A DNA stretch of 64,000 nt from Mobula hypostoma (Eukaryota): positions 98,954,001-99,018,000 of the forward strand of contig NC_086107.1 of assembly GCF_963921235.1 (NCBI RefSeq), read 5' to 3'. Position numbers and translations under genes: made by a program. Under the pieces are notes generated by a model. That model saw only the letters and a program-made list of their open reading frames with translations. It was not told where the DNA came from and did no database searches. Numbering within the stretch: the first letter of the stretch is position 1; the number at the start of each line of letters is the position of its first letter. Shown piece after piece: positions 1 to 61,462 of this stretch.

Positions 1-3000
1 ATGATGGGAGATGTGTAGAGTCCATAGTGGGAGATGTGTAGGGTGAATAGTGGGATAATAGTAGGGTCCATAGTGCGAGATGTGTAGAGTCGATGGTGGG
101 AGATGTGTGGGGTCCATGGTGGGAGATGTGTGGGTCCATGGTGGAAGATGCGTGGAGTCCATGGTGGGAGATGCGTGGGGTCCATGGTGGGAGAAGCGTG
201 GGGTCCATGGTGGGAGATGTGTAGGGTCCATGGTGGGAGATGTGTGGGGTCCATGGTGGGAGATGTGTGGGGTCCATGGTGGGAGATGTGTAGGGTCCAT
301 GGTGGGAGATGTGTAGAGTCCATGGTGGGAGATGAGTGGGGTCCATGGTGGGAGATGTGTAGGGTCCAGGGTGAGAGATGTGTGGGGTCCATGGTGGGAG
401 ATGTGTGGGGTCCATGGTGGGAGATGTGTAGGGTCCATGGTGGGAGATGTGTAGGGTCCATGGTGGGAGATGTGTAGGGTCCATGGTGGGAGATGTGTAG
501 GGTCCATGGTGGGAGATGTGTAGGGTCCATGGTGGGAGATGTGTGGGGTCCATGGTGGGAGATGTGTAGGGTCCATGGTGGGAGATGTGTGGGGTCCATG
601 GTGGGAGATGTGTGGGGTCCATGGTGGGAGATGGTGAGGGTCCATGGTGGGAGATGATGTGGGGTCCATGGTGGGAGATGTGTAGGGTCCATGGTGGGAG
701 ATGTGTGGGGTCCATGGTGGGAGATGTGTGGGTCCATGGTGGGAGATGTGTAGGGTCCATGGTGGGAGATGTGTAGGGTCCATGGTGGGAGATGTGTAGG
801 GTCCATGGTGGGAGATGTGTGGGGTCCATGGTGGGAGATGTTGGGGTCCATGGTGGGAGATGTGTGGGGTCCATGGTGGGAGATGTGTGGGGTCCATGGT
901 GGGAGATGTGTGGGGTCCATGGTGGGAGATGTGTGGGGTCCATGGTGGGAGATGTGTAGGGTCCATGGTGGGAGATGTGTGGGGTCCATGGTGGGAGATG
1001 TGTGCAGTGTCCATGGTGGGAGATGTGTAGAGTCCATGGTGGGAGATGTGTAGAGTCCATGGTGGGAGATGTGTAGGGTCCATGGTGGGAGATGTGTAGG
1101 GTCCATGGTGGGAGATGTGTAGGGTCCATGGTGGGAGATGTGTGGGGTCCATGGTGGGAGATGTGTAGGGTCCATGGTGGGAGATGTGTAGAGTCCATGG
1201 TGGGAGAAGTGTGGGGTCCATGGTGGGAGATGTGTGGGGTCCATGGTGGGAGATGTGTGGGGTCCATGGTGGGAGATGTGTGGGGTCCATGGTGGGAGAT
1301 GTGTAGGGTCCATGGTGGGAGATGTGTAGGGTCCATGGTGGGAGATGCGTGGGGTCCATGGTGGGAGATGTGTGAGGTCCATGGTGGGAGATGTGTGGGT
1401 CCATGATGGGAGATGTGTAGAGTCCATAGTGGGAGATGTGTAGGGTCCATGGTGGGAGATGTGTAGGGTCCATAGTGGGAGATGTGTAGGGTCCATGGTG
1501 GGAGATGCGTGGGGTCCATGGTGGGAGATGCGTGGGGTCCATGGTGGGAGATGTGTAGGGTCCATGGTGGGAGATGTGTGGGGTCCATGGTGGGAGATGT
1601 GTAGGGTCCATGGTGGGAGATGTGTAGGGTCCATGGTGGGAGATGCGTGGGGTCCATGGTGGGAGATGTGTGGGGTCCATGGTGGGAGATGTGTAGGGTC
1701 CATGGTGGGAGATGTGTGGGGTCCATGGTGGGAGATGTGTAGGGTCCATGGTGGGAGATGTGTAGGGTCCATGGTGGGAGATGTGTGGGGTCCATGGTGG
1801 GAGATGTGTAGGGTCCATGGTGGGAGATGTGTAGGGTCCATGATGGGAGATGTGTGGGGTCCATGGTGGGAGATGTGTAGGGTCCATGGTGGGAGATGTG
1901 TAGAGTCCATGGTGGGAGATGTGTAGGGTCCATGGTGGGAGATGTGTAGGGTCCATGGTGGGAGATGTGTAGGGTCCATGGTGGGAGATGTGTAGGGTCC
2001 ATGGTGGGAGATGTGTAGGGTCCATGGTGGGAGATGTGTGGGGTCCATGGTGGGAGATGTGTGGGGTCCATGGTGGGAGATGTGTAGGGTCCATGGTGGG
2101 AGATGTGTGGGGTCCATGGTGGGAGATGCGTGGGGTCCATGGTGGGAGATGTGTGGGGTCCATGGTGGGAGATGTGTGGGGTCCATGGTGGGAGATGTGT
2201 AGGGTCCATGGTGGGAGATGTGTAGAGTCCATGGTGGGAGTTGTGTAGGGTCCATGGTGGGAGATGTGTAGGGTCCATAGTGGGAGATGTGTAGAGTCCA
2301 TAGTGGGAGATGTGTGGGTCCATGGTGGGAGATGTGTGGGGTCCATGGTGGGAGATGTGTAGGGTCCATGGTGGGAGATGTGTAGGGTCCATGGTGGGAG
2401 ATGTGTAGGGTCCATGGTGGGAGATGTGTAGGGTCCATGGTGGGAGATGTGTAGGGTCCATGGTGGGAGATGTGTAGGGTCCATGGTGGGAGATGTGTAG
2501 GGTCCATGGTGGGAGATGTGTAGGGTCCATGGTGGGAGATGTGTGGGTCCATGGTGGGAGATGTGTGGGGTCCATGGTGGGAGATGTGTGGGGTCCATGG
2601 TGGGAGATGTGAGGGGTCCATGGTGGGAGATGTGTGGGGTCCATGGTGGGAGATGTGTGGGGTCCATGGTGGGAGATGTGTAGAGTCCATGGTGGGAGAT
2701 GTGTAGGGTCCATGGTGGGAGATGTGTGGGGTCCATGGTGGGAGATGTGTAGGGTCCATGGTGGGAGATGTGTAGGGTCCATGGTGGGAGATGTGTAGGG
2801 TCCATGGTGGGAGATGTGTGGGGTCCATGGTGGGAGATGTGTGGGGTCCATGGTGGGAGATGTGTAGGGTCCATGGTGGGAGATGTGTAGAGTCCATGGT
2901 GGGAGATGAGTGGGGTCCATGGTGGGAGATGTGTGGGGTCCATGGTGGGAGATGTGTGGGGTCCATGGTGGGAGATGTGTAGAGTCCATGGTGGGAGATG

Positions 3001-6000
3001 TGTAGGGTCCATGGTGGGAGATGTGTGGGGTCCATGGTGGGAGATGTGTAGAGTCCATGGTGGGAGATGTGTAGGGTCCATGGTGGGAGATGTGTAGAGT
3101 CCATGGTGGGAGATGTGTAGGGTCCATGGTGGGAGATGTGTAGGGTCCATGGTGGGAGATGTGTAGGGTCCATGGTGGGAGATGTGTAGGGTCCATGGTG
3201 GGAGATGTGTAGGGTCCATGGTGGGAGATGTGTAGGGTCCATAGTGGGAGATGTGTAGGGTCCATGGTGGGAGATGTGTGGGGTCCATGGTGGGAGATGT
3301 GTGGGGTCCATGGTGGGAGATGTGTAGGGTCCATGGTGGGAGATGTGTAGGGTCCATGGTGGGAGATGTGTGGGGTCCATGGTGGGAGATGTGTGGGGTC
3401 CATGGTGGGAGATGTGTAGGGTCCATGGTGGGAGATGTGTAGGGTCCATGGTGGGAGATGTGTGGGGTCCATGGTGGGAGATGTGTAGGGTCCATGGTGG
3501 GAGATGTGTAGGGTCCATGGTGGGAGATGTGTAGAGTCCATGGTGGGAGATGTGTAGGGTCCATGGTGGGAGATGTGTGGGGTCCATGGTGGGAGATGTG
3601 TAGGGTCCATGGTGGGAGATGTGTGGGGTCCATGGTGGGAGATGTGTAGGGTCCATGGTGGGAGATGTGTAGGGTCCATGGTGGGAGATGTGTAGGGTCC
3701 ATGGTGGGAGATGTGTAGGGTCCATGGTGGGAGATGTGTAGGGTCCATGGTGGGAGATGTGTAGAGTCCATGGTGGGAGATGTGTAGGGTCCATGAATGT
3801 GTGATGTGTGGGGTCCATGGTGGGAGATGTGTGGGGTCCATGGTGGGAGATGTGTAGGGTCCATGGTGGGAGATGTGTGGGGTCCATGGTGGGAGATGTG
3901 TGGGTCCATGGTGGGAGATGTGTAGAGTCCATTGTGGAGATGTGTAGAGTCCATGGTGGGAGATGTGTAGAGTCCATGGTGGGAGATGTGTAGGGTCCAT
4001 GGTGGGAGATGTGTGGGGTCCATGGTGGGAGATGTGTAGGGTCCATCGTGGGAGATGTGTAGGGTCCACAGTGGGAGATGTGTGGGGTCCATGGTGGGAG
4101 ATGTGTAGGGTCCATGGTGGGAGATGTGTGGGGTCCATGGTGGGAGATGTGTAGAGTCCATGGTGGGAGATGTGCAGAGTCCATGGTGGGAGATGTGTAG
4201 AGTCGATGGTGGGAGATGTGTAGAGTCCATGCTGGGAGATGTGTAGATTCCATGGTGGGAGATGTGTAGGGTCCATGAATGTGTGATGTGTGGGGTCCAT
4301 GGTGGGAGATGTGTAGGGTCCATGGTGGGAGATGTTTGCGGTCCATGGTGGGAGATGCGCAGTGTCTCTGGTGGGAGATGCGTGGGGTCCATGGTGGGAG
4401 ATGCGTGGGGTCCATGGTGGGAGATGCGTGGGGTCCATGGTTTGAGATGTGTAGGGTCCATGTTGGGAGATGTGTAGGGTCCATGATGGGAGATATGTAG
4501 AGTCCATGTTGGGAGATGTGTAGGGTCCATGGTGGGAGATGTGTAGAGTCCATGGTGGGAGATGTGTAGGGTCCATGGTGGGAGATGTGTGGGGTCCATG
4601 GTGGGAGATGTGTAGGGTCCATGGTGGGAGATGTGTAGGGTCCATGGTGGGAGATGTGTAGGGTCCACAGTGGGAGATGTGTGGGGTCCATGGTGGGAGA
4701 TGTGTAGGGTCCATGGTGGGAGATGTGTGGGGTCCATGGTGGAAGATGTGTAGGGTCCAAGGTGGGAGATGTGTAGGGTCCATAGTGGGAGATGTGTAGG
4801 GTCCATAGTGGGAGATGTGTTGGGCCCATGGTGGGAGATGTGTAGGGTCCATGGTGGGAGATGTGTAGGGTCCATAGTGGGAGATGTGTTGGGTCCATGG
4901 TGGGAGATGTGTAGAGTTCATTGTGGGAGATGTGCAGAGTCCATGGTGGGAGATGTGCAGGGTCCATGAATGTATGATGTGTGGAGTCCATGGTGGGAGA
5001 TGTGTCGGGTCCATGAATGTGTGCTGTGTGGGCTCCATGGTGGGAGATGTGTACAGTCCATGGTGGGAAATGTGTAGTGTCCATGAATGTGTGATGTGTG
5101 GGGTCCATGGTGGGAGATGTGTGGGGTCCATGGTGGGAGATGTGTAGGGTCCATGGTGGGAGATGTGTGGGGTCCAAGGTGGGAGATGTGTAGGGTCCAT
5201 AGTGGGAGATGTGTTGGGCCCATGGTGGGAGATGTGTAGGGTCCATGGTGGGAGATGTGTAGGGTCCATGGTGGGAGATGTGTAGGGTCCATAGTGGGAG
5301 ATGTGTTGGGTCCATAGTGGGAGATGTGTTGGGTCCATGGTGGGAGATGTGTGGAGTCCATTGTGGGAGATGTGTAGAGTCCATGGTGGGAGATGTGCAG
5401 GGTCCATGAATGTATGATGTGTGGGGTCCATGGTGGGAGATGTGTAGGGTCCATGAATGTGTGCTGTGTGGGGTCCATGGCGGGAGATGTGTACAGTCCA
5501 TGGTGGGAAATGTGTAGTGTCCATGAATGTGTGATGTGTGGGGTCCATGGTGGGAGATCTGTAGAGTCCATGGTGGGAGATGTGTAGGGTCCATGGTGGG
5601 AGATGTGTGGGGTCCATGGTGGAAGATGTGTAGGGTCCATAGTGGAAGATGTGTAGATTCCATGGTGGGAAATGTGTAGAATCCATGGTGGGAGATGGGT
5701 AGATTCCATGGTGGGAAATGTGTAGAATCCATGGTGGGAGATGGGTAGATTCCATGGTGGGAGATGTGTAGAATCCATGGTGGGAGATGTGTAGAGTCCA
5801 TGGTGGGAGATGTGTAGGGTCCATGGTGGGAGATATGTAGAGTCCATTGTGGGAGATGTGTAGAGTCCATGGTGGGAGATGTGCAGGGTCCATGGTGGGA
5901 GATGTGTAGGGTCCATGGTGGGAGATGTGTGGGGTCCATGGTGGGAGATGTGTGGGGTCCATGGTGGGAGATGTGTAGGGTCCATGGTGGGAGAAGTGTG

Positions 6001-9000
6001 GGGTCCATGGTGGGAGATGTGTGGGGTCCATGGTGGGAAATGTGTAGTGTCCATGGTGTGAGATGTGTAGAGTCCATGGTGGGAGATTTGCAGAGTACAT
6101 GGTGGGAGATGTGTAGAGTCGATGGTGGGAGATGTGTAGATTCCATGCTGGGAGATGTGTAGATTCGATGGTGGGAGATGTGTAGGGTCCATGAATGTGT
6201 GATGTGTGGTGTCCATGGTGGGAGATGTGTAGGGTCCATGGTGGGAGATGTTTGCGGTCCATGGTGGGAGATGTGTGGGTCCATGGTGGGGGATGTGTGG
6301 GTCCATGGTAGGAGATGAGTAGAGTCCATTTTGGAGATGTGTAGAGTCCATGGTGGGAGATGTGTAGAGTCCATGTTGGGAGATGTATAGGGTCCATGGT
6401 GGGAGATATGTGGGGTCCATGGTGGGAGATGTGTAGGGTCCATGGTGGGAGATGTGTAGAGTCCACGGTTGGAGATGTGTAGGGTCCACGGTGGGAGATG
6501 TGTAGGGTCCACAGTGGGAGATGTGTAGAGTCCATGGTGGGAGATGTGTAGAGTCCATGGTGGGAGATGTGTAGAGTCGATGGTGGGAGGTGTGTAGATT
6601 CCATGCTGGGAGATGTGTAGATTCGATGGTGGGAGATATTTAGGGTCCAGGAATGTGTGATGTGTGGGGTCCATGGTGGGAGATGTGTAGCGTCCATCGT
6701 GGGAGATGTTTGCGGTCCATGGTGGGAGATGCGCAGTGTCTCTGGTGGGAGATGCGTGGGGTCCATGGTGGGAGATGCGTGGGGTCCATGGTGGGAGATG
6801 CGTGGGGTCCATGGTTTGAGATGTGTAGGGTCCATGTTGGGAGATGTGTAGGGTCCATGATGGGAGATATGTAGAGTCCATGTTGGGAGATGTGTGGGTC
6901 CATGGTGGGAGGTGTGTAGAGTCCATGGTGGGAGATGTGTAGGGTCCATGGTGGGAGATGTGTGGGGTCCATGGTGGGAGATGTGTAGGGTCCATGGTGG
7001 GAGATGTGTAGGGTCCATGGTGGGAGATGTGTAGGGTCCACAGTGGGAGATGTGTGGGGTCCATGGTGGGAGATGTGTAGGGTCCATGGTGGGAGATGTG
7101 TGGGGTCCATGGTGGAAGATGTGTAGGGTCCAAGGTGGGAGATGTGTAGGGTCCATAGTGGGAGATGTGTAGGGTCCATAGTGGGAGATGTGTTGGGCCC
7201 ATGGTGGGAGATGTGTAGGGTCCATGGTGGGAGATGTGTAGGGTCCATAGTGGGAGATGTGTTGGGTCCATGGTGGGAGATGTGTAGAGTCCATTGTGGG
7301 AGATGTGTAGAGTCCATGGTGGGAGATGTGCAGGGTCCATGAATGTGTGATGTGTGGAGTCCATGGTGTGAGATGTGTAGGGTCCATGAATGTGTGCTGT
7401 GTGGGGTCCATGGTGGGAGATGTGTACAGTCCATGGTGGGAAATGTGTAGTGTCCATGAATGTGTGATGTGTGGGGTCCATGGTGGGAGATGTGTGGGGT
7501 CCATGGTGGGAGATGTGTAGGGTCCATGGTGGGAGATGTGTGGGGTCCAAGGTGGGAGATGTGTAGGGTCCATAGTGGGAGATGTGTTGGGCCCATGGTG
7601 GGAGATGTGTCGGGTCCATGGTGGGAGATGTGTAGGGTCCATAGTGGGAGATGTGTTGGGTCCATAGTGGGAGATGTGTTGGGTCCATGGTGGGAGATGT
7701 GTAGAGTCCATTGTGGGAGATGTGTAGAGTCCATGGTGGGAGATGTGCAGGGTCCATGAATGTATGATGTGTGGGGTCCATGGTGGGAGATGTGTAGGGT
7801 CCATGAATGTGTGCTGTGTGGGGTCCATGGTGGGAGATGTGTACAGTCCATGGTGGGAAATGTGTAGTGTCCATGAATGTGTGATGTGTGGGGTCCATGG
7901 TGGGAGATGTGTAGGGTCCATGGTGGGAGATGTGTAGAGTCCATGGTGGGAGATGTGTAGGGTCCATGGTGGGAGATGTGTGGGGTCCATGGTGGAAGAT
8001 GTGTAGGGTCCAAGGTGGGAGATGTGTAGGGTCCATAGTGGGAGATGTGTAGATTCCATGGTGGGAAATGTGTAGAATCCATGGTGGGAGATGGGTAGAT
8101 TCCATGGTGGGAGATGTGTAGAATCCATGGTGGGAGATGGGTAGATTCCATGGTGGGAGATGGGTAGATTCCATGGTGGGAGATGTGTAGAATCCATGGT
8201 GGGAGATGTGTGGAGTCCATGGTGGGAGATGTGTGGGGTCCATGGTGGGAGATGTGTAGGGTCCATGGTCGGAGATGTGTAGAATCCATGGTGGGAGATG
8301 TTTAGGGTCCACGGTGGGACATGTGTAGGGTCCACGGTGGGAGATGTGTGGGGTCCATGGTGGGAGATGTGTAGGGTCCATGGTGGGAGATGTGTAGGGT
8401 CCATAGTGGGAGATATGTTGGGTCCATGGTGGGAGATGTGTAGGGTCCATGGTGGGAGATGTGTAGTGTCCATGGTGGGAGATGTGTAGGGTCTATAGTG
8501 GGAGATGTGTGGGGTCCATGGTGGGAGATGCGTGAGGTCCATGGTGGGAGATGTGTGGGGTCCATGGTGGGAGATGTGTAGAGTCCATGGTGGGAGATGT
8601 GTAGGGTGTATAGTGGGAGATGCGTGAGGTCCATGGTGGGAGATGTGTGGGGTCCATGGTGGGAGATGTGTAGGGTCCATGGTGGGAGATGTGTAGGGTC
8701 CATGGTGGGAGATGTGTAGGGTCCATGGTGGGAGATGTGTGGGGTCCATGGTGGGAGATGTGTAGGGTCTATAGTGGGAGATGTGTGGGGTCCATGGTGG
8801 GAGATGCGTGAGGTCCATGGTGGGAGATGTGTGGGGTCCATGGTGGGAGATGTGTGGGGTCCATGGTGGGAGATGTGTGGGGTCCATGGTGGGAGATGCG
8901 TGAGGTCCATGGTGGGAGGGTTGTAGAGTCCATGGTGGGAGATGTGTAGTGTCCATGGTGGGAGATGTGTAGGGTCCATGGTGGGAGATGTGTCGGGTCC

Positions 9001-9017
9001 ATGGTGGGAGATGTGTG
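1..9017. repeat. 23-bp tandem satellite, consensus GGGTCCATGGTGGGAGATGTGT(A/G), about 390 units; may continue left of the window
   Basis: Directly visible periodicity; the ORF track returns the same peptides (MCRVHGGRCVGSMVGDVWGPWWE) in rotating frames; the array ends at about 9017 next to a SINE. Confidence 0.98.
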
Positions 9018-12400: not shown

Positions 12401-13381
12401 AACACTTTATTCTGCAATGTTGTTTTACCTCACTGCACTGTCATGATTTAATCTGTGTGAACAGTATACAAGCTTTTCACTGTATCTTAGAACATGTGAC
12501 AATATTGAACCAATTCAGTCAACCAGAGCATGCTCAGGTAGCGGCTTCAATTACCCCTAAAAATCATCGATAATTCCACCCAAGATGCTGCTGCAGCCAC
12601 TGAGCTCCAGCAGTTCATGTTTCACTGGGTTAAGTCAGTGACTGAGACATTCTCCCTTTCTTAGACCATTCCACTTCATTTTAAGAGGTCTAAGACGTTT
12701 CACCATTACCCTCAGAGGCTGGAGCGTGGCTGTCCACACTGCCTTCACCCCTCAGTCAAAAACTCACTGAGTCAGGCAACAGCTGTGATGGTCAATATTT
12801 TTCTGTGGAGTCCCTGCATTAGCAGTGCAGAGGGAAGACAGGTGATAGAAAGAGACAGAACCAGGTGAGGTGGGGTGGGAGAAGATCAGCAGGTGGAGGC
12901 AACCAAATGGTATACAGAATGAATTCTCTGATTTCAGGTTACCCACTCCCATCAGTTCACCCGGAGCCTCTGTTTCTCTGTTCACCATTTCCCCGTTACC
13001 AGATTCATGACCCTAGTCCATCTGCATATTATCCACATTCCCAACCACCTTCTCTTTACTCTTAACATCCCTTATCCCTTCCCCATTTGCCCAAGGTTAT
13101 CCCTTTCCTTCCTACCCTCCCAAACCTGGGCTCCACCTGCCCATCATCTCACACCCTCCCTTTCCCCTCTGAATTCCCTGCCCTGATGCACGGTCTCCAC
13201 CTGAAATGTCACCCACTCTCCCACCAACACCACCCTGCTTGACCCACTGACCCCACCACCCCAGCAGTTTGTTTTTTTTGCTCTGGATTCCACCTTCTCC
13301 ACTTCTTGTGCCTTTACCTCTCAATTATCTTTCTTGTTTCCAAATGACCAACACAGGACACGGTGTTTATGATACTGGCTG

Positions 13382-20949: not shown

Positions 20950-23900
20950 CATACGACCAGGATGCAACGCGCGGCACCGCGCCTGCGCAGTGGTAACGAG
21001 GGAGGGAGGGAGGGGATGGGAAGGGACGAGGAGGGAATTCTGTCTCCCACCGTCCCTCCCTCCACTTTGCAGGACCACTGCCGGAGTCCCGAGGGTCGGA
21101 ACACTTCTGTCCAGTTCCCGGGCGTGTGGAACAGGGTGGGAAAAGGCAGGTACCTGGATGTGTCAAAGCAAGGCTGCTGGAAATGGGATCAGGCTGGTCG
21201 CTGTTCTCTGCCAGCCACAGGCAGTTGGACACGTCCAGTATCTATGATCCTGTGCCAGACCACCCGAAGCATCTCTTCACAGCTCCGAACTCACATCGAT
21301 ATCAGAACCCGACCTATCTACAAGATGCTGGAGGAACGTGCTGCGTCAGGCAGCATCCGTGGAGGGAAATGGGAAAGTCAAAACCCTTCATCTGGACTGC
21401 TCATCTCCATCCAGTCCCCACCCAGTCCCAGCTACAAGCTCTCCCAACTTTCAGCTGCCTGGTTCCGCACCACCCTAATTTTCACCTGTCCAGTTGCAGG
21501 GTCTCGATCTGAAACATCGACTATATATTACCCCCCGCCCCCCCCCAAACATATCAGAATCGGGTTTATTATCACTGATATATGTCATTAAAGTTCTTGT
21601 TTTGTGGCAGCAAGACACGGAAAGAAAACTAAGTTATAATAAATAAATAGTGCAAAAAAAAAAGAATTGAGGTAATGCTCGTGAACCATTCAGAAATCTG
21701 ATGGTGGGGGGAGAAGTTGTTCCTGAAACTTCGGGTGCCGGTGCTCAGATTCCTTTACTTCCTACCTGATGGCAGGAACAAGATGGCATGTCCTGGATGG
21801 TGAGGGTCCTTAATGATTGATACTACCGTTTGAAGATGTCCCAACACTGCTGACCTGCCGAGTTCTTCCAGCATCTTGTGTATTGCTCCAGATTCCAGCA
21901 TCTTCAGCTTCTTCTGCCACCAACAGACCTACCTATTCCCCTGCAGCGTTGGATCACACAGGACAAACCTATCTAGTCCTGTGCGAGAACTGACACTGAC
22001 ACCAAGACCATTTCTCAGAGGTGGTGAATTCCTGCTTTCAGTCCCCAAGAGGTTCAAGCCCTGGGCAAAGACCCCTCATACTAAACAAAGATCTATCCTC
22101 TTATTTCACCCCTTACACCACAACACTCCTTTACTGGACATCAATTGCACGCATGAAGTTCTGTGTAAGATCACCGGCAAGGTGGAGCAGACCAAGGGGA
22201 TGGAATTCTGACCAGTGCGTGGCTCGAATTTGGCCCATGTTCTACACAGGAATTTATGCAGGAGGGTGATAGAGCCAGAAAGGTACTTGGATCTGCACCT
22301 GATGAGTCAAACCAAGACTGCTGTCTCGAAGGGTAATTTGGCTGACGGATAGCATTCATCCGTCATCCCAGAATCAAGCCACACCAGCAGACAAGGTGCA
22401 AAGCTGCTTTAACGGAGCATGGCATCCCCATTCTGGACAGGAGCCCTCTCTTAGCTAAACCCCAGCCCACAGCTCAGCAACTTTTGAAATGCTGGCGGCA
22501 GATGTAAAATCCTCATAACCCAATGTGGGGAACTCAGTTATTTAGAGATACAGTGCATAACAAGCACTCCCAGCCCAAAGAGCTGCAATGCCCAGGAACC
22601 CACCCGTTTAATCACAGGACAATTTACAATAACCAATTAACCTATCAACCAGTACGTCTTTGGACCGTGGAAGGAAACCCATGCGGTTATGGAGAGAATG
22701 TAACAACTTCTTATGGACGGTGCTGGAATAGCATCATGCTACGCTACCATGGTGCCCTTGGATCAACTGGTCAAACTCCAATCACAATATTCAGTAATTA
22801 CTAAATATCAGCCATGTCTCTGCTTTCCATTATGAGATCAGAAGGATTGTCCCGATGGGAAATCGAGGTTATACCTTGGCCCTTTAGTGAGCAGAGGAAT
22901 TTGACAGTATTACCAGTGTATAATAGGAGTCACTGACCAACACACTGACCGACGCCCTAGGGAAAGCATAGATAGTGCACGAGATTATTAGTGCATTGCA
23001 GATATTGCATCCAGAATGTGGATTTCAGGAACTTTCATGCTCAGTTTGAAGGAGTCACTGATCCATTATTTCAATAAAAATATTCAAAATATTGGAAGTT
23101 TAGCTTTATTTGTCATGTATACATGAAAACATAGTGTGAACTGTGTCGTTTACATCGATGACCAACAGGCCAATGATATGCTGAGGGACAGCTCACGTTA
23201 CCCCACCTCTGGTGCCAACATAGCAGGCCCACAACTTATGGGCCTTATCCATGTTTCAGGAATGCAGGATGAAACTGGAGCACCTGGAAAAGTCCCACAT
23301 GGTCACAAGGAGAACACACAAACTCCTTATAGACAGCGGCAGAAATTGAACGCTGATTGTTGGTGCTGTAAAGCATTATGCTGACCGCTGCTGGAAGACT
23401 GGTGAGAATTTATAAGCATCTCCACCACAGGAGGGGGCAGGTTTGCTGTCTTTAGCCATGGGCAGATGGTCGGAGTTTTTTGATGCCGTGATCCGGTCTT
23501 CATGAAGGGTCAGTGAAGACGATCAACGGCCAAGCTGAAAATGGAACTGGATACGTTCTGAAAATGGAGTATTTGGCTGGGCTGCTGGGAAAGGAACATT
23601 AGGGTGTCACTGAGTAATTCTTTTAATGAACCAGGCATAATCATTGGGCTGAGATACTGAGGCCTGTGTACAAGGAACAGCAACAAGAAATAATGTGAAG
23701 ATTTGTACTGATTTTATCTTTCATTTCCTTGCAAAATGTCCTGAACTGGTCTACAGCCAGTAAAGTGTTGTGGAGAACCAGTCAGCCAATTTGCACACAG
23801 CTCCCACAAAACTTCCAGGGAATAGAAAACCAAATAACATGTGATTTGAATTTGATTTTTGTTTTGATTGGGGATTGAGGTAGGGGTGAATGTATGTGTG

Positions 23901-36520: not shown

Positions 36521-36971
36521 GCCTGTGCAAGAATCCCCATCCTCAGCAATAGTGGGGAGAAGGTGGAAACATTCACAACTATGCTCAGCCTGATCTGAGA
36601 GCTCCCCACTACCACAAAAGGCAGTCTTTAGTTAACTTGATTCAGTCTAAATGAAGTCAAAAAACTGACAAGAGCACTGGATATGGGACAAGATCTTACA
36701 GGACCAGATAGCATCCAACATCCGAGCTGTAATATTGAAGACCCATGCTACAAAATTTGATGTACCTGTAGCTTAGCTATTCCAGTACAGTTCAAAAAGA
36801 GGCTCTGGAAAAATGTCCAATTACATCCTTTTCACTAAAAACAGGACGTATGCAATTCAGCTAATTAATGCCGAATTAGTCTGCTCTCTATCAATGCAAA
36901 GTAATGGAAGGTGTCAGCTACACTGCCATGAAGCTGCACTTACTCTGCAATAACTTGCTTGCTGTTACCAA

Positions 36972-37111
36972 TGGTTAGTCCTGACGAAGGGTCTCGGCCT
37001 GAAACATCGACTGCACCTCTTCCTATAGATGCTGCTTGGCCTGCTGCGTTCACCAGCAACTTTGATGTATGTTGCTTGAATTTCCAGCATCTGCAGAATT
37101 CCTGTTGTTTG
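36972..37111 (+). mobile_element. Penelope-derived short element with a type-I hammerhead motif; 13-bp TSD ttgctgttaccaa
   Basis: TSD at 36959-36971 and 37109-37121; AGTC-CTGACGA-AGGGTCTCGGCCT-GAAAC-ATC-GACT at 36977-37012. Confidence 0.8.
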
Positions 37112-37289
37112 CTGTTACCAAGTTCTAATTTGGCCAGAGCCACTCAGACCCAGGCCACAGATGAATCCATGTGTGGCTCAGAAGGGAAGTGGGGAGAAGA
37201 GGCGAACTACAGTGATAGGGATTTCAATGGTGAGGGGAACAGGCAGGAGGTGCTGAGCATGGGAGCTGAAAAAGATCTTAGATGGATTG

Positions 37290-38160
37290 TTTGCATCTGT
37301 ATTTACTCAGAAGATGGACACAGGGTCTACAGAGGTGAGGCAAAACAGTAGGGAGGTCATGGACAGTATACAGATTACAGAGGATGAGGTGCTCACTGTC
37401 CTGAGGCAAATTAGGCTTGATAAATCCCCAAGGCCTGACAAGGTGTTCCCTTGGACCTTGAGGGAGACTAGTGCAGAAATTGCAGGGGCCCGAGCAGAGG
37501 TATGGACTTTAGCAAGGCCTTTGACAATGTCCCGCATGGGAGGTTGGTCAAAAAGGTTCAATCACTTGACATTCAGGATGAGTTAGTAAATTAGTTCAGA
37601 CATGCTTCACGGGACAAGCCGAGAGTGATTAGTAGATGGTTGCCTCTCTGACTGGAGGTCTGTCACTGGTGACGCGGCGCAGGAATTGATGCTAGATCCA
37701 TTATTGTTTGTCACCTGTATCAGTAATCTGGATGATAATGTAGTAACACACATAAAAGTTGCTGGTGAACGCAGCAGGCCAGGCAGCATCTCTAGGAAGA
37801 GGTGCAGTCGACGTTTCAGGCCGAGACCCTTCAGGATCCTCACGAAGGGTCTTGGCCTGAGACGTCGACTGCACCTCTTCCTAGAGATGCTGCCTGGCCT
37901 GCTGCATTCACCAGCAACTTTTATGTGTGTTGCTTGAATTTCCAGCATCTGCAGAATTCCTGTTGTTTGATAATGTAGTAAACTGGATCAACAAATCTGT
38001 GGACGACACCTAGATTGGGGGTGTAGTGGACAGTGAAAAAGACTATCAAAGCTTACAGCAGGAACTGGACCAGCTGAAAAATGGCAGATGGAATTTAATG
38101 CAGGCAATTGTGAAGTGTGGCACTTTGGGAGGACAAACCAGGGTAGAACTTGCATGGTGA
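37290..38160 (+). mobile_element. CR1 LINE RT fragment interrupted by a palindromic insertion
   Basis: DKSPRPD, MDFSKAFD, ISNLDDNVV/NWINKSVDDT (degenerate FADD) motifs. Confidence 0.85.
37747..37969 (+). mobile_element. Palindromic Penelope-derived element with arms of about 90 bp; 14-bp TSD tgataatgtagtaa
   Basis: Inverted arms centred near 37835; TSD at 37733-37746 and 37968-37981; removing the insert restores the host CR1 reading. Confidence 0.85.
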
Positions 38161-38999
38161 GATATAAAAGAAGGATGCGGTCTGTTCTAAGTACTTCCAG
38201 AATTATCAGTTTTATTTTGGCTTTCCAATTTTCTACAGTCTTTCATCTTTCAAATCAATGAATGATTGATGAGCTGGAGCGGAGTGGAAAAAACATGTGA
38301 TAATAGACGTCAAATCATGGACCACTGGAGAGCAAACTACGGTCATCACCTAACATGCTGCTTCACCAGTAAACCCACATCCAAGAAGTGCACTCTCCCG
38401 CATTCACGAGAAATGCTGCAACTTCTGCAAGAATCCATACCTGTCCCATTCGCCAGCACCAGCCTTGACTTCCTTGCACTTAACTGGGTACCCTCTTCCA
38501 TGCAGGGAAGAACATCTGTCTGCTGCAGTAAACCAGCACAGGCAAAGGAGCTGCCCAGTTCAGTCCCAATCCCATACTCTGTGACCAGAGACCTGCAACT
38601 TTGTCTAGTTCTTTGTTTCTAAGTTATTATCCTCACTGAAATGTTCCCACAACCAATGGACTCACTTTCAAGGACTCGTCATCTCATGTTCTTGAAATTT
38701 ATTGCTTCGTTATTTGTCATTAATATTTCATCTTTTTGCATTTGCACAGTTTTTCTTTGTCTTCTGCACTCGGTTGAATGCCCAACATTGATTCTGTTAT
38801 GGTTGTTACTCTATGGATCTATTGAGTATCCCACAAGAAAATGAATCTCAGGGCTGTTTATGGTGATATACATCTACTTTGATAATAAAATTTACTTTGA
38901 ACTTTGAATATGTTTAGTTAGTGCATTCCAAATCACGAACAGATGCATTAAAAAAAATCCTTTTCTTTCATCCTAATCCTACACAAACAGAAACTCCTT

Positions 39000-40192
39000 T
39001 GTCTGTTAATTTCCAGAAGGCATTCGATAAGGTGCCACATAAAAGACTTATCCATAAGATAAGGATGCATAGAGTCGGGGGTGATGTGTTAGCATGGATA
39101 GAGGATTGGTTAACTAATAGAAAGCAGAGAGTTGGGATACATGGGTGTTTCTCTGGTTGGCGTTTGACGTTCCCCCTCCCCAATCAGTGGTGAATGGTGT
39201 GCCGCAGGGGTTGGTGCTGGGCCTGCAACTGTTCACAATATACATTAACGATCTGGAAGAGGGGACCAAGTGTAGTGTATCTAAGCTTGCTGATGATACT
39301 AAATTGAGTGGAAAAGCAAATTGAGCAAAGATACAGAGTCTGCAGAGAGATATAGATAGGTTAAGTGAGTGGGCAAGGGTCTGGGAGATGCAGTAGTGTT
39401 GGTAAATGCGAAATCATCCACTTGGAAGGAAAAAGGAAAGAGCAGATTATTATTTAAATGGAAAAAAAATTGCAGCATGCTGTTGTGCAGAGGACTTGGG
39501 AGGGCTTGTGCATGAATCACAAAAGGTTGGTTTGCAGGTGCAGCAGGCTATCAAGAAGGCAAATGGAATATTGGCCTTCATTGCTAGAGGGATTGAATTT
39601 AAGAGCAGGGAGGTTATGCTGCAACTGTACAGGGTACTGGTGAGGCTGCATCTGGAGGACTGCGTGCAGTTCTGGTCTCCTTACATGAAGAAGGATATAC
39701 TGGCTTTGGAGGCGGTGCAGAGGAGGTTCACCAGGTTGATTCCAAAGATAAGAGGGTTAGACTATGAGGAGAGATTGAGTCGCCTGAGACTGTACTCACT
39801 GGAATTCAGAAGAATGAGAAACATAAAATTATGAAAGGGATAAATAAGATAGAGGCAGGAAAGTTGTTTCCACTGGTAGGTGAGACTAGAACTAGGGGAC
39901 ACAGCCTCAAGATTCGGGGGAGTAGATTTAGGACAGAAGTAGTAACTGCTTTTCCCAGAGAGGGGTGAATCTGTGGAATTCTCTGCCCAAGAAGCAATGG
40001 AGGCTACCTCAGTAAATATATTTAAGACAAAGTTGAATAGATTTTTGCATAGTAGGGGAATTGAGGGTTATGGGGAAAAGCAGGTAGGTGGGAGTTGGGT
40101 CTATGGCCAGATCAGCCATGATCTTATTGAATGGTGGAGCAGACTCAATGGGCCAGATGGCCAAATCCTGCTCCTATTTCTTATCTTCTTAT
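39000..40192 (+). mobile_element. CR1 LINE RT to 3' end
   Basis: FQKAFDKVPHKRL, GVPQG.VLG, SKLADDTKL and LEAVQRRFTRLIP motifs with frameshifts. Confidence 0.92.
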
Positions 40193-40546: not shown

Positions 40547-40942
40547 CTGAGATGAAGAGCACAGTTAAGACTGCTTCACAGAGTTTTTTCTGAATCCAGG
40601 CCACAACCAAATGCTTCACATACAAACAATAAGCCTGTTCTGCAATTCACTGCTGTTCCGTATCGTAACTCCATATCTTTTTTACCCTGTATCTCTTCAT
40701 ATCAAGGAAGTTTGTGTCATCTCTCCCCCTTTTGGAGTCTGGGTATCACTCTTGTAATCTCATTGCTATAATAACTCCAAGCCTAATTTATCCTTGCCTT
40801 GGTGTGGTGCCATTCATAGTTTAGGTGTGGTCTAACCTGGAAGCTGTATAAATGCAACATTACCATCCTCCTTTTTTCTTTAATATTTTCAAAGTCAGAT
40901 GAAAATGAAACTGCTGTTCCAAAACACTAGTATGGACAGTAA

Positions 40943-41141
40943 GCAGCACACATCAAAGTTGCTGGTGAACGCAGCAGGCCAGGCAGCATCTATAGGAAGA
41001 GGCACAGTTGACGTTTCAGGCCGAGACCCTGAAACGTCGACTGCGCCTCTTCCTATAGATGCTGCCTGGCCTGCTGCGTTCACCAGCAACTTTGATGTGT
41101 GCTGCTTGAATTTCCAGCATCTGCAGAATTCCTGTTGTTTG
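40943..41141 (+). mobile_element. Palindromic Penelope-derived element; 14-bp TSD agtatggacagtaa
   Basis: TSD at 40929-40942 and 41142-41155; inverted arms of about 80 bp centred near 41025; same 3' end gcatctgcagaattcctgttgtttg. Confidence 0.85.
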
Positions 41142-41809
41142 AGTATGGACAGTAATGTAACTTTAACCATTGCAACTGTTCCCCAATGTTATACAGTACT
41201 GTGCAAAGGCCTTAGACATCCTAGATCTTTTATATGGTTTCAGATGGTATGGCCTCGACAGAGCCGTGATCTCAACATCATCGAGGCAGCCTGGGATTAC
41301 CTGGAGAGACAGAAGCAAGCGAGACAGCCAAAGCTGTTTGCAATCCCAAGCTCAATTAGAATCAAATACGAATCTGAGGTTGCCAATAGCCTGGCTCAGT
41401 TTTACAACCGTGACACGGAAATGGATGGAGTTAGAGAATTGATTTTCCAATGGGGAACAAGGACAATAGCCTTGCTCATGCGAACATTTAGTTGGAAGAA
41501 ATTTCTGGGCACCTGACACCAAATACCGCAGAAGCAGCCCGACAACTTAGTATCTGCTGGGCAAATACTGGTGGTGACGAAGGGTATCTCAGCACAGTGC
41601 AGCGATAGACCAACTCAGTCATATTGTTTCTCAATCCCTGTACACCTCAGCACTGCATTCCAGTGTGACATGTATGATTAAGCACAATATGTTATTTAAG
41701 AAGGATTTTTGCTACATTGTAAGTAAAGAGGACGAAGAGGAGGGAATGAAGATAGTCTCTTCCTTTCCTGCCGAAAAATCTGTGTGTTGCATAGTCACAC
41801 AATACTCAC

Positions 41810-46881: not shown

Positions 46882-46998
46882 AGGCCTGAAACGTCAACTG
46901 TACCTCTTCCTAGAGATGCTGCCTGGCCTGCTGTGTTCACCAGCAACTTTTATGTGTGTTGCTTGAATTTCCAGCATCTGCAGATTTCCTCGTGTTTG
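46882..46998 (+). mobile_element. 5'-truncated copy of the Penelope-derived short element
   Basis: aggcctgaaacgtcaactg...gatgctgcctggcctgctg...gcatctgcagatttcctcgtgtttg; no TSD seen. Confidence 0.75.
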
Positions 46999-52869: not shown

Positions 52870-54580
52870 TTGTCTCTCAGGCCTTTATCAAATCTGCTCG
52901 GTCCTGATGAAGAGTCATGGCCCACAACATCAACTGGTTATTCATTTACATAGATACTGCCCGACTTGTTGAGTTCCTCCAGCATTTTGTGTGTGCTGCT
53001 TCAAATCTTCCCTTCCTGCACAAGATTCTTAAGAAAGTTATTTTCAAACCAACTCTCTGAATGAGAACAACGTTCTAGAGAAGTTTCAGTCAGGCTTTAG
53101 AGCAAACCACAGCTCAGAGACAGTGCGTACTAAAATTGTCAGCGACCTTAGCCTCAGCACTGATGCCAACAGAGTCTCAGTTCTAATTCTTCCAGATCTA
53201 CATGCTGCCTTAGACTCAATTGATCACAACATTCTCCTAGATTGTGTTGAGAATTGGTGTGGCCTGTCTAATAGTGCCCTTAATTGTTTTGTTCATATAT
53301 CTTAGAGTTAAAATTTTTTGTCTGTCTTGGAGACCAATCTATTAGGAGTTACAATGTACCTCCTGTTGTTGTTCAGGGAAGCTGCCTCTTCTCCCTATAC
53401 ATGCTCTCCTTTAAGAGACATTATTAGAGAGCATAAACCTGATTCATGGTCATTCAGATGACACACAACTGTGTATCTCCATTGAGCCTGATGATGATAA
53501 CACCCTATCTTCTCTGACTTCTGAAACAGCTGCAATAAACAAATGCATGAGCAATATTTTCCTAAAACTAAATGAAGACAAAACTGAAATTCTTTTGCAA
53601 TATACACAAAATGCTGGAGGAACTCAGCAGGTCAGGCAGCATCTATGGAAATGAATAGATAGTCAACGTTTCAGTCCAAAACCTAAAAGAAGGGTCGCTT
53701 TTTATTTCCATGGACGCTGCCTGACCTGCTGAGTTCATCTAGCACTCTGTGCATGTTGCTTTGGATTTTCAATAGAATTCCTTTGCTGGTCCCAAAGCCA
53801 AAAGAGATAAACTTCTTGATAAACTTGAGAACTTTGCTCCCCTTGTAAAATCAGAAATAACTAGCCTGGGTTATTATCCTCGATTCAGATTTGAATTTTA
53901 AAATTGCAGATAAAGAGTGACCAGAGCAGCATTTCTACACTTAAGAAATATTGCAAAGGTACTGCATGTCCGTTCCTGTCATGTAATGACACTGAAAAAC
54001 TACAACTCACGCTTTTATATCAAATAGACTCGATTACTGCAATGCATCTTATACTGGCCTTCCAAAGCAATCTCTTGACAAACTTCATTCAGTATGTTGC
54101 TGCTAGACTTTTAACCAAAAACGGGATGAGGGAACATATCACTCCTGTACGAGTCACTCATCATTAGCTTCCTGTCTCTTTTAGAATTGATTTTAAAGTT
54201 CTCTTAAAAAACTTTTAAGAGAAATGCCCTGGCACAAGAGTACATCACAGAATCACTTTCATTTATAATCCTACTTGAGCTCTCGGGTCGTCTTCCACCG
54301 GTCTTTTAAATTTAAACTATCTCCCTCAAAGGATAATTGACAAGTCGTCTTTTTTGAACTATGCTTCTAAACTGTGAAATTTCATACTTAAAACTATAAG
54401 GGATGCAGACTCAACTGACACTTCTAAACACCAGCTCAAAACCTATTTAGTTGTTCTTGCTTTTAACTAATATCTCTTCGTCTTTTATTTTAGTGTCACG
54501 TTTGCACTTCATCCCATTGTAAGGCATTTGAACTGTATCATCTGTATAAAAAGTGTTCTACAAATAGTTATTATTATTAT
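52870..54580 (+). mobile_element. Decayed L2-clade LINE RT to 3' end, carrying two nested Penelope-derived insertions (52896-53000 and 53599-53774)
   Basis: LPFLHKILKKV, EKFQSGFRANHSSET, LILPDLHAALDSIDHNILL, DDTQL, AARLLT...REHITP; (tta)n tail. Confidence 0.85.
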
Positions 54581-61327: not shown

Positions 61328-61462
61328 AAACACGAGGAAATCTGCAGATGCTGGAAATTCAAGCAACACACATCAAAGTTGCTGGTGAACGCAGCAGGCC
61401 AGGCAACATCTCTAGGAAGAGGTGCAATCGAGGTTTCGGGCCGAGACCCTTCGTCAGGACTC
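61328..61462 (-). mobile_element. Penelope-derived short element with a hammerhead motif (61425-61462)
   Basis: Minus strand reads GAGTC-CTGACGA-A-GGGT-CTCG-GCCC-GAAAC-CTC-GATT, followed by the shared body. Confidence 0.78.

What the first reader, a model, noticed from the sequence alone, without database searches (positions are those of the whole stretch)
36959..37121. Short mobile elements carrying a minimal type-I hammerhead ribozyme motif
Seen: 36976-37013 reads TAGTC|CTGACGA|A|GGGT-CTCG-GCCT|GAAAC|ATC|GACTG. That is stem I (AGTC/GACT), the CUGANGA box, a hairpin stem II, the GAAA box, an NUH triplet and a loopless stem III. Other copies have the self-complementary GAAACGTC (41031, 46888). 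A second copy with both core boxes intact is on the minus strand at 61425-61462. Degenerate relatives lie near 13188, 21495 and 52903. Known: Penelope-like elements and retrozymes carry minimal type-I hammerheads that typically need dimerisation to cleave. Inference: this is a non-coding, ribozyme-bearing retroelement family of 130-220 bp mobilised in trans by a Penelope RT, which repeat libraries could mislabel as a MITE.
Basis: partly seen in the sequence, partly recalled or inferred. Interest (0 to 1): 0.75.

Follow-up and report, generated by a model that had tools for sequence, protein, structure and literature searches.

The report
Penelope retroelement tails with minimal hammerheads
The short repeats are the tail ends of Penelope-like jumping genes in a cartilaginous-fish genome, each carrying the small hammerhead self-cutting RNA motif already described for such elements, so the catch is correct but of a known kind.

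Summary
Window 36959-37121 is a 137-bp insertion between 13-bp target-site duplications, and 36976-37013 has every sequence feature of the minimal type-I hammerhead (min-HHR) of Penelope-like elements (PLEs).

The family is very large. The intact 36-nt motif occurs 32,886 times in the 3.48-Gb genome, against 0 for the reversed control.

The same 137 bp ends copies that encode reverse transcriptase and a GIY-YIG endonuclease (L024, L092).

I sampled 100 copies by tail motif, without choosing them:
- 27 run at least 213 nt upstream into the PLE 3'UTR.
- 46 are fold-backs whose inverted 5' arm lacks the last ~30 bp (the PLE "tail").
- Target-site duplications are mostly 13-15 bp.

These are the usual 5'-truncated, often fold-back, dead-on-arrival PLE insertions. 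I do not read them as a separate retrozyme-like family: there are no tandem units, the hammerhead cut site is not a copy boundary, and short and long copies share the same variants.

The focal copy carries a G-to-A change that breaks the dimer palindrome. There is no stem covariation, no Rfam match, and cleavage was not tested.

One item goes beyond the literature I read: 14 of 73 mapped 5' ends fall in a 5-nt window at the hammerhead's 5' edge, which hints at a defined RNA 5' end.

The scan reached the same reading before on other shark-type genomes (e1-7788964, e1-7788970, e1-7788743).

The parts
36959..36971 (.). Left target-site duplication (13 bp, TTGCTGTTACCAA)
   Evidence: Identical to 37109-37121. 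The modal duplication length in the genome sample is 13-14 bp.
36972..37108 (+). 137-bp 5'-truncated Penelope-like element tail. Two extra bases (TG) precede GTTAGTCC. Element coordinate e = window position minus 36971.
   Evidence: It is 95% identical to the 3' end of the RT/GIY-YIG-bearing copy in L024.
36976..37013 (+). Minimal type-I hammerhead motif. Helix I 36976-80/37009-13; CUGACGA 36981-87; unpaired A 36988; helix II 36989-92/36997-37000; GAA 37001-03; A15.1 37004; C17 37008. The predicted cut lies between 37008 and 37009. 37006 is A where the family has G.
   Evidence: In one search other runs read G at 37006 in 78-95 contigs each. In one search, 47 of 52 copies keep ACGT.
37031..37096 (+). 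Predicted long-range stem (GATGCTG/CAGCATC) enclosing two hairpins. It lies at or next to the two 3' boundaries, so it is a likely reverse-transcriptase recognition and start region.
   Evidence: MFE fold. Conserved in older families. There is a weak, non-significant UnaL2-like match at 37054-37107. The role is inferred by analogy with PMC11167929.
37076..37108 (+). About 30-bp 'tail' (about e105-137), present on the direct copy and absent from inverted arms.
   Evidence: 41 of 46 inverted arms end at e91-110. Partial tandem copies end at e108. The tail concept comes from PMC8557442 and PMC11167929.
37109..37121 (.). Right target-site duplication
37747..37968 (+). Fold-back insertion: inverted arm about 37747-37832, direct copy 37837-37968. 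The core is mutated (CTCACGA, GAGAC). The 13-bp duplication gataatgtagtaa lies at 37734-37746 and 37969-37981.
40943..41141 (+). Fold-back insertion: inverted arm to 41030, direct copy from e28 at 41028. The CUGANGA box is lost on the direct arm. The 14-bp duplication agtatggacagtaa lies at 40929-40942 and 41142-41155.
46883..46996 (+). 5'-truncated monomer starting at about e26, with no CUGANGA box
61329..61461 (-). Monomer starting at e7 (GTCCTGACG). Both boxes are present, 11.1 is C, and it reads GAAACCTC.
52901..53004 (+). Old diverged relative (68% identity) with a decayed core and no tail
53597..53771 (.). Old diverged fold-back (74-78% identity)
21495..21907 (+). Old relative in two pieces (21498-21522 and 21847-21907)

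Best explanation
[quoted passage not shown] The PLE encodes a reverse transcriptase and a GIY-YIG endonuclease joined by a Neptune-type Cys linker.

Shown here:
- The 137 bp is the 3'-terminal module of that element. It holds a minimal type-I hammerhead (min-HHR), then a structured region, then a tail of about 30 bp.
- Copies carry 13-15-bp target-site duplications and have variable 5' ends.
- Nearly half have an inverted, tail-less 5' arm inside the same duplication.

Inferred from published PLE biochemistry: the endonuclease nicks AT-rich DNA. Reverse transcription starts at one of two internal sites of the RNA, here about e106 and about e137. cDNA synthesis usually stops early or turns back on itself.

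The hammerhead belongs to the parent element's RNA. By its sequence it could act only as a dimer or with protein help, cutting 3' of GUC. It does not define the ends of these copies. The focal copy is a lone, mutated, probably inert monomer.
For: Motif: all core positions are present, with the extra base after A9 and the family consensus ACGU palindrome. These are the features listed for PLE min-HHRs in PMC4209133.

Link to the PLE:
- L024 is a single insertion with a 14-bp duplication. It holds an inverted arm, ORFs with RVT_1 and GIY-YIG, a C-rich 3'UTR of about 290 bp, then the element.
- L092, L093 and L094 have the same architecture, with inverted arms of 1.1-1.5 kb.
- The L092 ORF has the GIY-YIG domain and a CKRNKCYTC linker.

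Population, from 100 copies taken in genome order by a tail 22-mer:
- 27 run at least 213 nt upstream.
- 46 are fold-backs, and 41 of those 46 arms end at e91-110.
- Duplications were found in 50 of 68 assessable copies, and 38 of those 50 are 13-15 bp.
- 3' ends vary over about 6 nt.

Literature match:
- An inverted 5'-truncated copy and a one-sided 30-40-bp tail (PMC8557442).
- Two internal RT start sites that define the tail (PMC11167929).

Abundance: 32,886, 49,707 and 59,248 exact motif hits against 0 for the controls.
Against: - No Rfam hammerhead model matches, even at E up to 10, on the focal copy or on an intact copy.
- 0 of 9 stem pairs show compensatory change across 12 diverged copies, and shuffles do as well. 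Support for the fold therefore rests on conservation and on precedent.
- The predicted monomer fold pairs GACG of the core with CGUC: -15.7 against -7.7 kcal/mol for the hammerhead register. The 139-nt fold has z = -0.84.
- No full-length element with the module at both ends was recovered.
- RVT_1 in L024 scores below Pfam's cut-off (26.5 against 29.6 bits).
- The 5' ends are not a smooth truncation curve. 14 of 73 lie at e4-e8, which plain truncation does not predict.
- Cleavage and expression were not tested.
Confidence: 0.82

Rival explanations
1. A separate, non-coding, hammerhead-bearing short retroelement (retrozyme-like or SINE-like, about 130-220 bp) has its own transcripts and is copied in trans by the PLE enzyme.
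For: - 5' ends and fold-back turn-points pile up at the hammerhead's 5' edge. 28 of 100 direct starts lie in e-3..16 and 14 lie in e4-e8 (my arithmetic: about 1.2 expected if the 73 mapped ends were spread evenly over 317 nt). 13 of 46 inner arm ends lie in e3-e8. 14 of 46 fold-backs are symmetrical.
- Only 5 ends lie in the next 169 nt upstream.
- Monomers L087, L110, L121 and window 61461 start exactly at GTCCTGACG.
- The 7 best genome hits that I inspected all start within about 6 nt of e3.
- Drosophila Penelope has an internal, LINE-like promoter (PMC2377424 abstract).
- Animal retrozymes derive from PLE pLTRs (preprint 10.64898/2026.07.22.740005).
Against: - Short and long copies share the same variants. 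The focal copy's two diagnostic variants also occur in L045, which runs at least 216 nt upstream.
- Fold-back arms of short copies carry 3-20 nt of PLE 3'UTR.
- No head-to-tail units in 0 of 60 copies.
- No boundary at the cut site.
- The same data fit a PLE mRNA that starts in its terminal repeat and is reverse-transcribed from the nearer of two start sites, which needs no separate element.
Confidence: 0.15
2. The elements are MITE-like DNA transposons with long terminal inverted repeats. The hammerhead resemblance is incidental.
For: 46 of 100 copies are fold-backs with arms about 100 bp long. There are short flanking direct repeats.
Against: - The arms are unequal, with the tail on one side only. 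The inner junction varies from copy to copy.
- Half of the copies are single-armed with variable 5' ends.
- Duplications are 13-15 bp.
- The same sequence ends RT/GIY-YIG-coding copies.
Confidence: 0.02
3. The block is a true PLE terminal module, but the hammerhead-like part no longer works as a ribozyme. It would be conserved as a protein-binding, promoter or cDNA-joining sequence.
For: - No covariation.
- A stable alternative fold.
- No copy boundary at the cut site.
- The whole 137 bp is conserved between families, not just the motif.
- In the Anolis PLE, hammerhead mutants did not change insertion in vitro and no reads ended at the cut site (PMC11167929).
- Naiad PLEs thrive without hammerheads (PMC8557442).
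- Several fold-back junctions join e3-12 to e38-46, the two strands of helix I.
Against: - All 11 invariant core positions, H17, the extra base and the ACGU palindrome are kept in the family consensus and in older families of 71-85% identity.
- The Anolis PLE hammerhead does cleave when its protein is present, with C3/G8 rescue.
Confidence: 0.2

Closest known systems
Minimal hammerheads (min-HHR) in the terminal repeats of metazoan Penelope-like elements (Cervera and De la Pena 2014, PMC4209133; main text parts 1-2 read)
   Same: - Type-I motif with no helix III hairpin and a helix I of 4-5 bp.
- An unpaired base between A9 and 10.1, and a palindromic 15.2-16.2.
- Mostly dispersed single motifs, or opposite-strand pairs 100-700 bp apart.
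- Sits in PLE termini and occurs in thousands of copies in fish, coelacanth and frog genomes.
   Different: - Helix II here is 4 bp, against 6-8 bp in the schistosome and fly examples.
- The young family has G-U rather than G-C at 10.1-11.1.
- No compensatory changes were seen here.
- The copy number is far higher than the roughly 4,000-9,000 quoted for coelacanth and Xenopus: 32,886 exact 36-mers.
Canonical endonuclease-positive PLE insertion units (Craig et al. 2021, PMC8557442, passages) and the two internal RT start sites of the Anolis Poseidon element (Frangieh et al. 2024, PMC11167929, main text)
   Same: - Heavy 5' truncation with an adjacent inverted 5'-truncated copy.
- A 30-40-bp tail at one end only.
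- The hammerhead lies about 90-100 nt upstream of the 3' end.
- AT-leaning targets.
   Different: - In Anolis the ORF starts inside the hammerhead region. Here no ORF start is seen in the module.
- The clade looks Neptune-like by its linker motif, not Poseidon. This was not tested by a tree.
- The 5'-end hot spot at the hammerhead's 5' edge is not mentioned in the passages I read.
Animal non-LTR retrozymes (Cervera and de la Pena 2020, PMC7229834, listing only; Li et al. 2026 preprint 10.64898/2026.07.22.740005, abstract and Results part 1)
   Same: Short non-coding units with type-I hammerheads that need dimers, related to PLE terminal repeats.
   Different: Retrozymes are head-to-tail tandem arrays that give unit-length linear and circular RNAs cut at the ribozyme site. 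Here the copies are dispersed, carry target-site duplications, are often fold-backs, and are not bounded by the cut site.
Schistosome Sm-alpha/Sj-alpha SINE-like elements with hammerheads (as described in PMC6765202, passages)
   Same: Short, very abundant, hammerhead-bearing retroposed units.
   Different: Those have a promoter followed by a canonical hammerhead with helix III. No such organisation is shown here.

Membership tests
PLE min-HHR (Cervera and De la Pena 2014) | Core boxes CUGANGA and GAAA, U16.1, H17 | tested here: met
   Focal copy. 39 of 52 sampled copies reaching e3 keep both boxes.
PLE min-HHR (Cervera and De la Pena 2014) | [quoted passage not shown] | tested here: met
   A at 36988. 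A in 11 of 12 diverged rows.
PLE min-HHR (Cervera and De la Pena 2014) | G10.1-C11.1 pair | tested here: met
   G-C in 9 of 12 diverged rows. The young family, including the focal copy, has G-U.
PLE min-HHR (Cervera and De la Pena 2014) | Palindromic 15.2-16.2, which allows a dimeric helix III | tested here: met
   ACGT in 47 of 52 copies. The focal copy reads ACAT, so it fails individually.
PLE min-HHR (Cervera and De la Pena 2014) | Consensus families with covariation in helices I and II | tested here: inconclusive
   0 of 9 pairs have two-sided changes. 87% of cells are paired against 14-48% when slid, but 500 of 500 shuffles do as well. There is too little variation to judge.
PLE min-HHR (Cervera and De la Pena 2014) | Location in the terminal repeat of a PLE | tested here: met
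   L024, L092-L094.
PLE min-HHR (Cervera and De la Pena 2014) | Self-cleavage 3' of H17 (weak, dimer- or protein-dependent) | not testable with these tools
   Folding only. The inactive rod is favoured for the monomer.
Rfam hammerhead models (Hammerhead_1 and relatives) | Covariance-model match | tested here: not met
   No hammerhead hit at the gathering score or at E up to 10 on the focal copy and an intact copy. I believe this is expected if the models include a helix III hairpin, but that is my recollection, not a call.
Endonuclease-positive Penelope-like elements | Reverse transcriptase followed by a C-terminal GIY-YIG endonuclease | tested here: met
   In L024, GIY-YIG scores 27.6 bits (cut-off 22.6). 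RVT_1 scores 26.5 bits (cut-off 29.6) in a frame-shifted neighbouring ORF. Both domains lie in one 529-aa frame in another PLE family of this genome (L019).
Endonuclease-positive Penelope-like elements | 5'-truncated insertions with an adjacent inverted copy and a one-sided 30-40-bp tail | tested here: met
   46 of 100 are fold-backs, and 41 of 46 arms stop at e91-110 while direct copies end at about e137.
Endonuclease-positive Penelope-like elements | Direct pseudo-LTRs flanking a full-length ORF | not tested
   No full-length copy of this family was recovered. Direct repeats in L021 and L023 flank ORFs of a different PLE family.
Neptune/Nematis-type PLE | CX2-5CxxC motif between RT and endonuclease | tested here: met
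   CKRNKCYTC lies upstream of the GIY-YIG motif in L092. No phylogeny was done.
Animal non-LTR retrozymes | Head-to-tail tandem units bounded at the ribozyme cut site | tested here: not met
   0 of 60 copies with all hits listed have a second direct unit. 6 of 73 5' ends lie in e36-46 and none at e38.
Animal non-LTR retrozymes | Unit-length linear and circular RNAs | not testable with these tools
   Only contigs of uncertain RNA or DNA nature were available.
MITE | Equal terminal inverted repeats with fixed ends and a transposase-type duplication | tested here: not met
   Arms are unequal, junctions are variable and duplications are 13-15 bp.

The most novel reading that the evidence does not exclude
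The sharp pile-up of copy starts and fold-back turn-points at e3-e8, inside the 5' strand of hammerhead helix I, may mark a defined RNA 5' end. The sequence there reads like two initiator motifs (TCAGTT, TTAGTCC). That would mean a transcription start inside the PLE terminal module.

If so, a roughly 130-nt RNA made of the hammerhead plus the RT-start structure would itself be a preferred template. It could be the 5' leader of the PLE mRNA, copied from the nearer of two RT start sites. Or it could be a self-transcribing mini-element with an internal promoter. Either would explain why a quarter or more of about 10^5 insertions are 'unit-length' minis.
Probability: 0.3. Interest if true: 0.4.

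Novelty: new member of a known kind. Interest (0 to 1): 0.2.

Why it matters
Mostly for annotation. In this genome, tens of thousands of 130-220-bp units and fold-backs should be labelled as Penelope-like tails, not as MITEs, SINEs or retrozymes. An isolated "intact hammerhead" in an intron or near a gene is most likely an inert by-product.

The family also offers an unusually large natural set of PLE insertion junctions: about 33,000 intact min-HHRs, with many young copies at 97-100% identity. That set could be mined for three things:
- how PLE reverse transcription starts (the two 3' boundaries);
- how it ends (the hot spot at the hammerhead's 5' edge);
- how it turns back on itself.

These steps are still poorly understood for this class of retroelement.

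Tried and rejected
- Rfam scans gave no hammerhead. Only weak chance-level matches appeared: UnaL2 at E 2.2-6.8, PK1-TEV, snoU6-53.
- The covariation count on 12 diverged copies was uninformative.
- Scoring the active dimer with ViennaRNA failed because the topology is crossing. Only monomer and duplex MFEs were obtained.
- Expression: no RNA holder was listed. The 8 runs are contigs of guessed type. Laying 4 of them shows thousands of contigs over 36966-37119 only and cannot show RNA ends.
- No full-length element of this family was found. GIY-YIG loci L019, L022 and L026 belong to other PLE families with no similarity to the module. A relaxed hammerhead regular expression found no other hammerhead lineage in the ten loci scanned (L019-L026, L029, L030).
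- The direct repeats in L021 and L023 turned out to be young tails next to ORFs of a different PLE family.
- An ORF start inside the module, as in Anolis, was looked for by eye and not found.
- Supplement search of PMC4209133 for the motif: 0 hits in 2 files, and file 1 was not searchable.
- Lunse et al. 2017 is not held.
- Pfam on 12 ORFs around 35.5-42 kb gave only a weak RVT_1 fragment at 38918-39193.
- The earlier-findings look-up by sequence found nothing.

Full report
**What is at the coordinates**

The window lies in a 3.48-Gb, 200-contig eukaryotic assembly. Earlier notes on the same genome call it a cartilaginous fish; I did not test this.

- TAGTC at 36976-36980 and CTGACGA at 36981-36987.
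- An extra A at 36988.
- GGGT-CTCG-GCCT at 36989-37000.
- GAAA at 37001-37004, then C-A-T-C at 37005-37008.
- GACTG at 37009-37013.

The insertion proper is therefore 36972-37108, which is 137 bp. Below I use element coordinates, e = window position minus 36971. The G of GTTAGTCC is e3, the predicted cut is e37|e38, and the end is about e137.

**Is it more than chance**

The loose two-box pattern alone is not significant: 4 matches against a mean of 1.0, and 3 of 100 shuffles reach 4. The 25-mer with up to 3 mismatches occurs 3 times in the window, and in 0 of 100 shuffles.

blastn finds the following in the window:
- Five young copies: 36971, 37837, 41028, 46883 and 61461 (minus strand).
- Two inverted partial copies abutting two of them.
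- Several old relatives, including 21498, 52901 and 53597-53771.
- 13182, which is only a weak match (E 0.98).

Genome-wide exact counts, each against 0 for the reversed-pattern control:

| Pattern | Hits |
|---|---|
| 36-nt motif (helix I, core, helix II, GAAACGUC, helix I) | 32,886 |
| e3-28 26-mer | 49,707 |
| Tail 22-mer | 59,248 |

**What the motif is**

The family consensus has CUGACGA, an unpaired A, a 4-bp helix II, GAA, then A-C-G-U-C, and a helix I of 4-5 bp.

Cervera and De la Pena (PMC4209133, main text read) define the PLE min-HHR by these same traits:
- No helix III hairpin.
- A helix I of 4-5 bp.
- G10.1-C11.1.
- A palindromic 15.2-16.2 that allows a dimeric helix III.

They also note opposite-strand pairs 100-700 bp apart and mostly solitary, truncated copies. 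All of this is seen here.

Caveats:
- The young family has G-U at 10.1-11.1. It is G-C in 9 of 12 older rows.
- The focal copy has A for G at 37006, which breaks the palindrome. Four runs read G there in 78-95 contigs each, and 47 of 52 sampled copies keep ACGT.
- No Rfam hammerhead model matches at any threshold tried.
- Across 12 diverged copies, 0 of 9 stem pairs show a two-sided change, and column shuffles pair as well as the real data. Covariation therefore neither supports nor contradicts the fold.
- ViennaRNA predicts helices I and II in the hammerhead register, plus an extra GACG/CGUC helix that would lock a monomer in an inactive rod: -15.7 against -7.7 kcal/mol. This agrees with the published weak, dimer- or protein-dependent activity.
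- Cleavage itself was not testable.

**What the element is**

A Pfam GIY-YIG search of the genome returns many loci: 39 matches from 27,350 first-look candidates.

In L024, one insertion bounded by a 14-bp duplication reads, on its coding strand:
- an inverted arm (reverse complement of about e112 back through the module and into the 3'UTR);
- ORFs with RVT_1 and GIY-YIG;
- a C-rich 3'UTR of about 290 bp;
- then e4-e139.

L092, L093 and L094 are 97% identical relatives with 2-kb direct parts and inverted arms of 1.1-1.5 kb. The 398-aa frame of L092 ends in a GIY-YIG domain preceded by CKRNKCYTC. That is the CX2-5CxxC linker that PMC8557442 ascribes to Neptune-type PLEs.

The 137 bp is therefore the 3'-terminal module of a coding PLE.

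Other PLE families in the genome (L019, L022, L026) share no similarity with it. A relaxed regular expression found no other hammerhead lineage in the ten loci scanned (L019-L026, L029, L030).

**Population structure**

To avoid the bias of best-hit lists, I took the first 100 genome hits of the tail 22-mer, in contig order, each with 330 bp upstream.

Direct-copy 5' ends:

| Position | Copies |
|---|---|
| Run off the stretch, at least 213 nt into the 3'UTR | 27 |
| e-212 to e-44 | 5 |
| e-43 to e-4 | 14 |
| e-3 to e16 | 28 |
| e17 to e104 | 25 |

(One copy falls just outside these bins.)

Other features of the sample:
- 46 of the 100 are fold-backs. 41 of the 46 inverted arms stop at e91-110, so they lack the last ~30 bp that the direct copy carries.
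- 3' ends vary over about 6 nt...GTTGT...GTTGTTT...GTTTGCG(T).
- Duplications of 8 bp or more were found in 50 of 68 assessable copies. 38 of those 50 are 13-15 bp. They enclose the whole fold-back and are 67% A+T, against 60% in the flanks.

This matches the published PLE insertion unit: high 5' truncation, an adjacent inverted 5'-truncated copy, and a 30-40-bp tail at one end (PMC8557442). Frangieh et al. explain the tail by two internal reverse-transcription start sites, located about 85-92 nt past the hammerhead cut site in the Anolis element (PMC11167929). Here the distances are about 70 and 100 nt.

The copies decay roughly neutrally. Mismatch is 3.5% in e5-42 against 5.8% in e43-104, and the second figure includes subfamily polymorphisms. 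19 of 52 copies match the consensus over e3-42, and 39 of 52 keep both boxes.

The link to Penelope and the need for dimers are supported by structure and precedent. A separate retrozyme-like family is not:
- The focal copy's two diagnostic variants also occur in copies that run far upstream, such as L045.
- Arms of short fold-backs carry 3-20 nt of PLE 3'UTR.
- No head-to-tail units were seen in 0 of 60 copies whose hits were all listed.
- The cut site is not a boundary: 6 of 73 mapped 5' ends lie in e36-46 and none at e38.

Animal retrozymes, by contrast, are tandem arrays related to PLE pLTRs (preprint 10.64898/2026.07.22.740005).

The MITE reading fails on unequal arms, variable junctions and the RT/EN link.

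**What plain truncation does not explain**

14 of the 73 mapped 5' ends fall at e4-e8. By my arithmetic, about 1.2 would be expected if they were spread evenly over e-212..104. In addition, 13 of 46 inner arm ends fall at e3-e8, and 14 of 46 fold-backs are symmetrical, most of them turning at e-3..e14.

Monomers L087, L110 and L121, and the window copy at 61461, begin exactly at GTCCTGACG with clean duplications. L003, L007 and the focal copy begin at e3, with zero to two extra bases.

The density of ends then drops about 45-fold upstream, yet 27% of copies continue for hundreds of bases.

This bimodality suggests that many templates have a real RNA 5' end at the 5' strand of helix I. The sequence there resembles initiator motifs; that is my own reading and is untested. 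PLE promoters are reported to lie in the terminal repeats (PMC6765202 passage). They are reported to be internal and LINE-like in Drosophila Penelope, whose start lies a short way upstream of its hammerhead (PMC2377424; PMC4209133).

One mechanism that fits is a PLE mRNA that begins in its upstream module and is reverse-transcribed from the nearer of the two start sites. A self-transcribing mini-element is the bolder alternative.

Some junctions instead join e3-12 to e38-46, the two strands of helix I. That hints at snap-back priming through the hammerhead's own self-complementarity.

None of this could be tested without RNA data. The only runs offered are contigs of guessed type.

**Comparison and verdict**

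This is the known PLE min-HHR in the known PLE insertion architecture.

A full-text search for Penelope-like + shark + hammerhead ribozyme returned one paper, in which "shark" refers only to the motif's shape. The 2026 preprint sampled one chondrichthyan. The family is therefore a new member of a known kind rather than a new kind. I could not check Repbase or Dfam.

The same scan reached the same conclusion on other shark-type genomes (e1-7788964, e1-7788970, e1-7788743). I treat those notes as agreement, not as evidence.

Interest is low. The 5'-end hot spot is the one lead worth a follow-up.

Noticed in passing
window 1-9016: A 23-bp minisatellite (unit ATGGTGGGAGATGTGTAGGGTCC, about 392 copies, 91% matches) runs off the window start. 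It explains the GC skew of about 0.65-0.69 there.
   Followed up: partly
L023 (G000:C130:560000-569999) and neighbours; L021 (G000:C18:109596000-109605999): PLE GIY-YIG ORFs of a different family recur every ~4.9 kb on a small 621-kb contig and every ~2.8 kb on C18. Each unit is preceded by a young hammerhead tail (e4-139 or e4-108). These are tandem or partial-tandem PLE arrays.
   Followed up: partly
L026:1746-5187, L022:1649-5312, L019:4265-5851: Longer PLE ORFs of other families (up to 529 aa with RVT_1 and GIY-YIG in one frame). They have no similarity to the 137-bp module, and a relaxed regular expression found no hammerhead in them.
   Followed up: partly
L076 (G000:C1:2224936-2225357), around locus bases 170-230 of the oriented copy: A three-part junction: inverted arm to e5, then a short direct piece e13-45, then a direct copy from e-1. 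This suggests repeated template switching within the hammerhead region.
   Followed up: no
window 37054-37107 / L003:1582-1635: The tail stem-loop gives a weak full-length match to Rfam UnaL2 (LINE 3' element): 15.9 bits, E 2.2-6.8, gathering score 55. This is probably chance, but both are RT-recognised 3' hairpins.
   Followed up: no
window 36966-37119 in coded runs X1, X2, X5, X6: Runs from two other studies and organisms hold 1,769-3,711 contigs each that match only the element, not its flanks. Depth is about 3-fold higher over the 3' half than over the hammerhead. The family, or a close relative, is therefore abundant beyond this assembly.
   Followed up: partly
L005:1357-1482 (minus strand): An older relative family sits directly upstream of a young copy. 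Its core has decayed (CTGATTA, CAAAATG) but helix II and the tail are kept.
   Followed up: no
window 38918-39193 (+): A weak reverse-transcriptase fragment (RVT_1, E 4.4e-5, below cut-off). The neighbourhood of the finding is decayed transposon debris.
   Followed up: no
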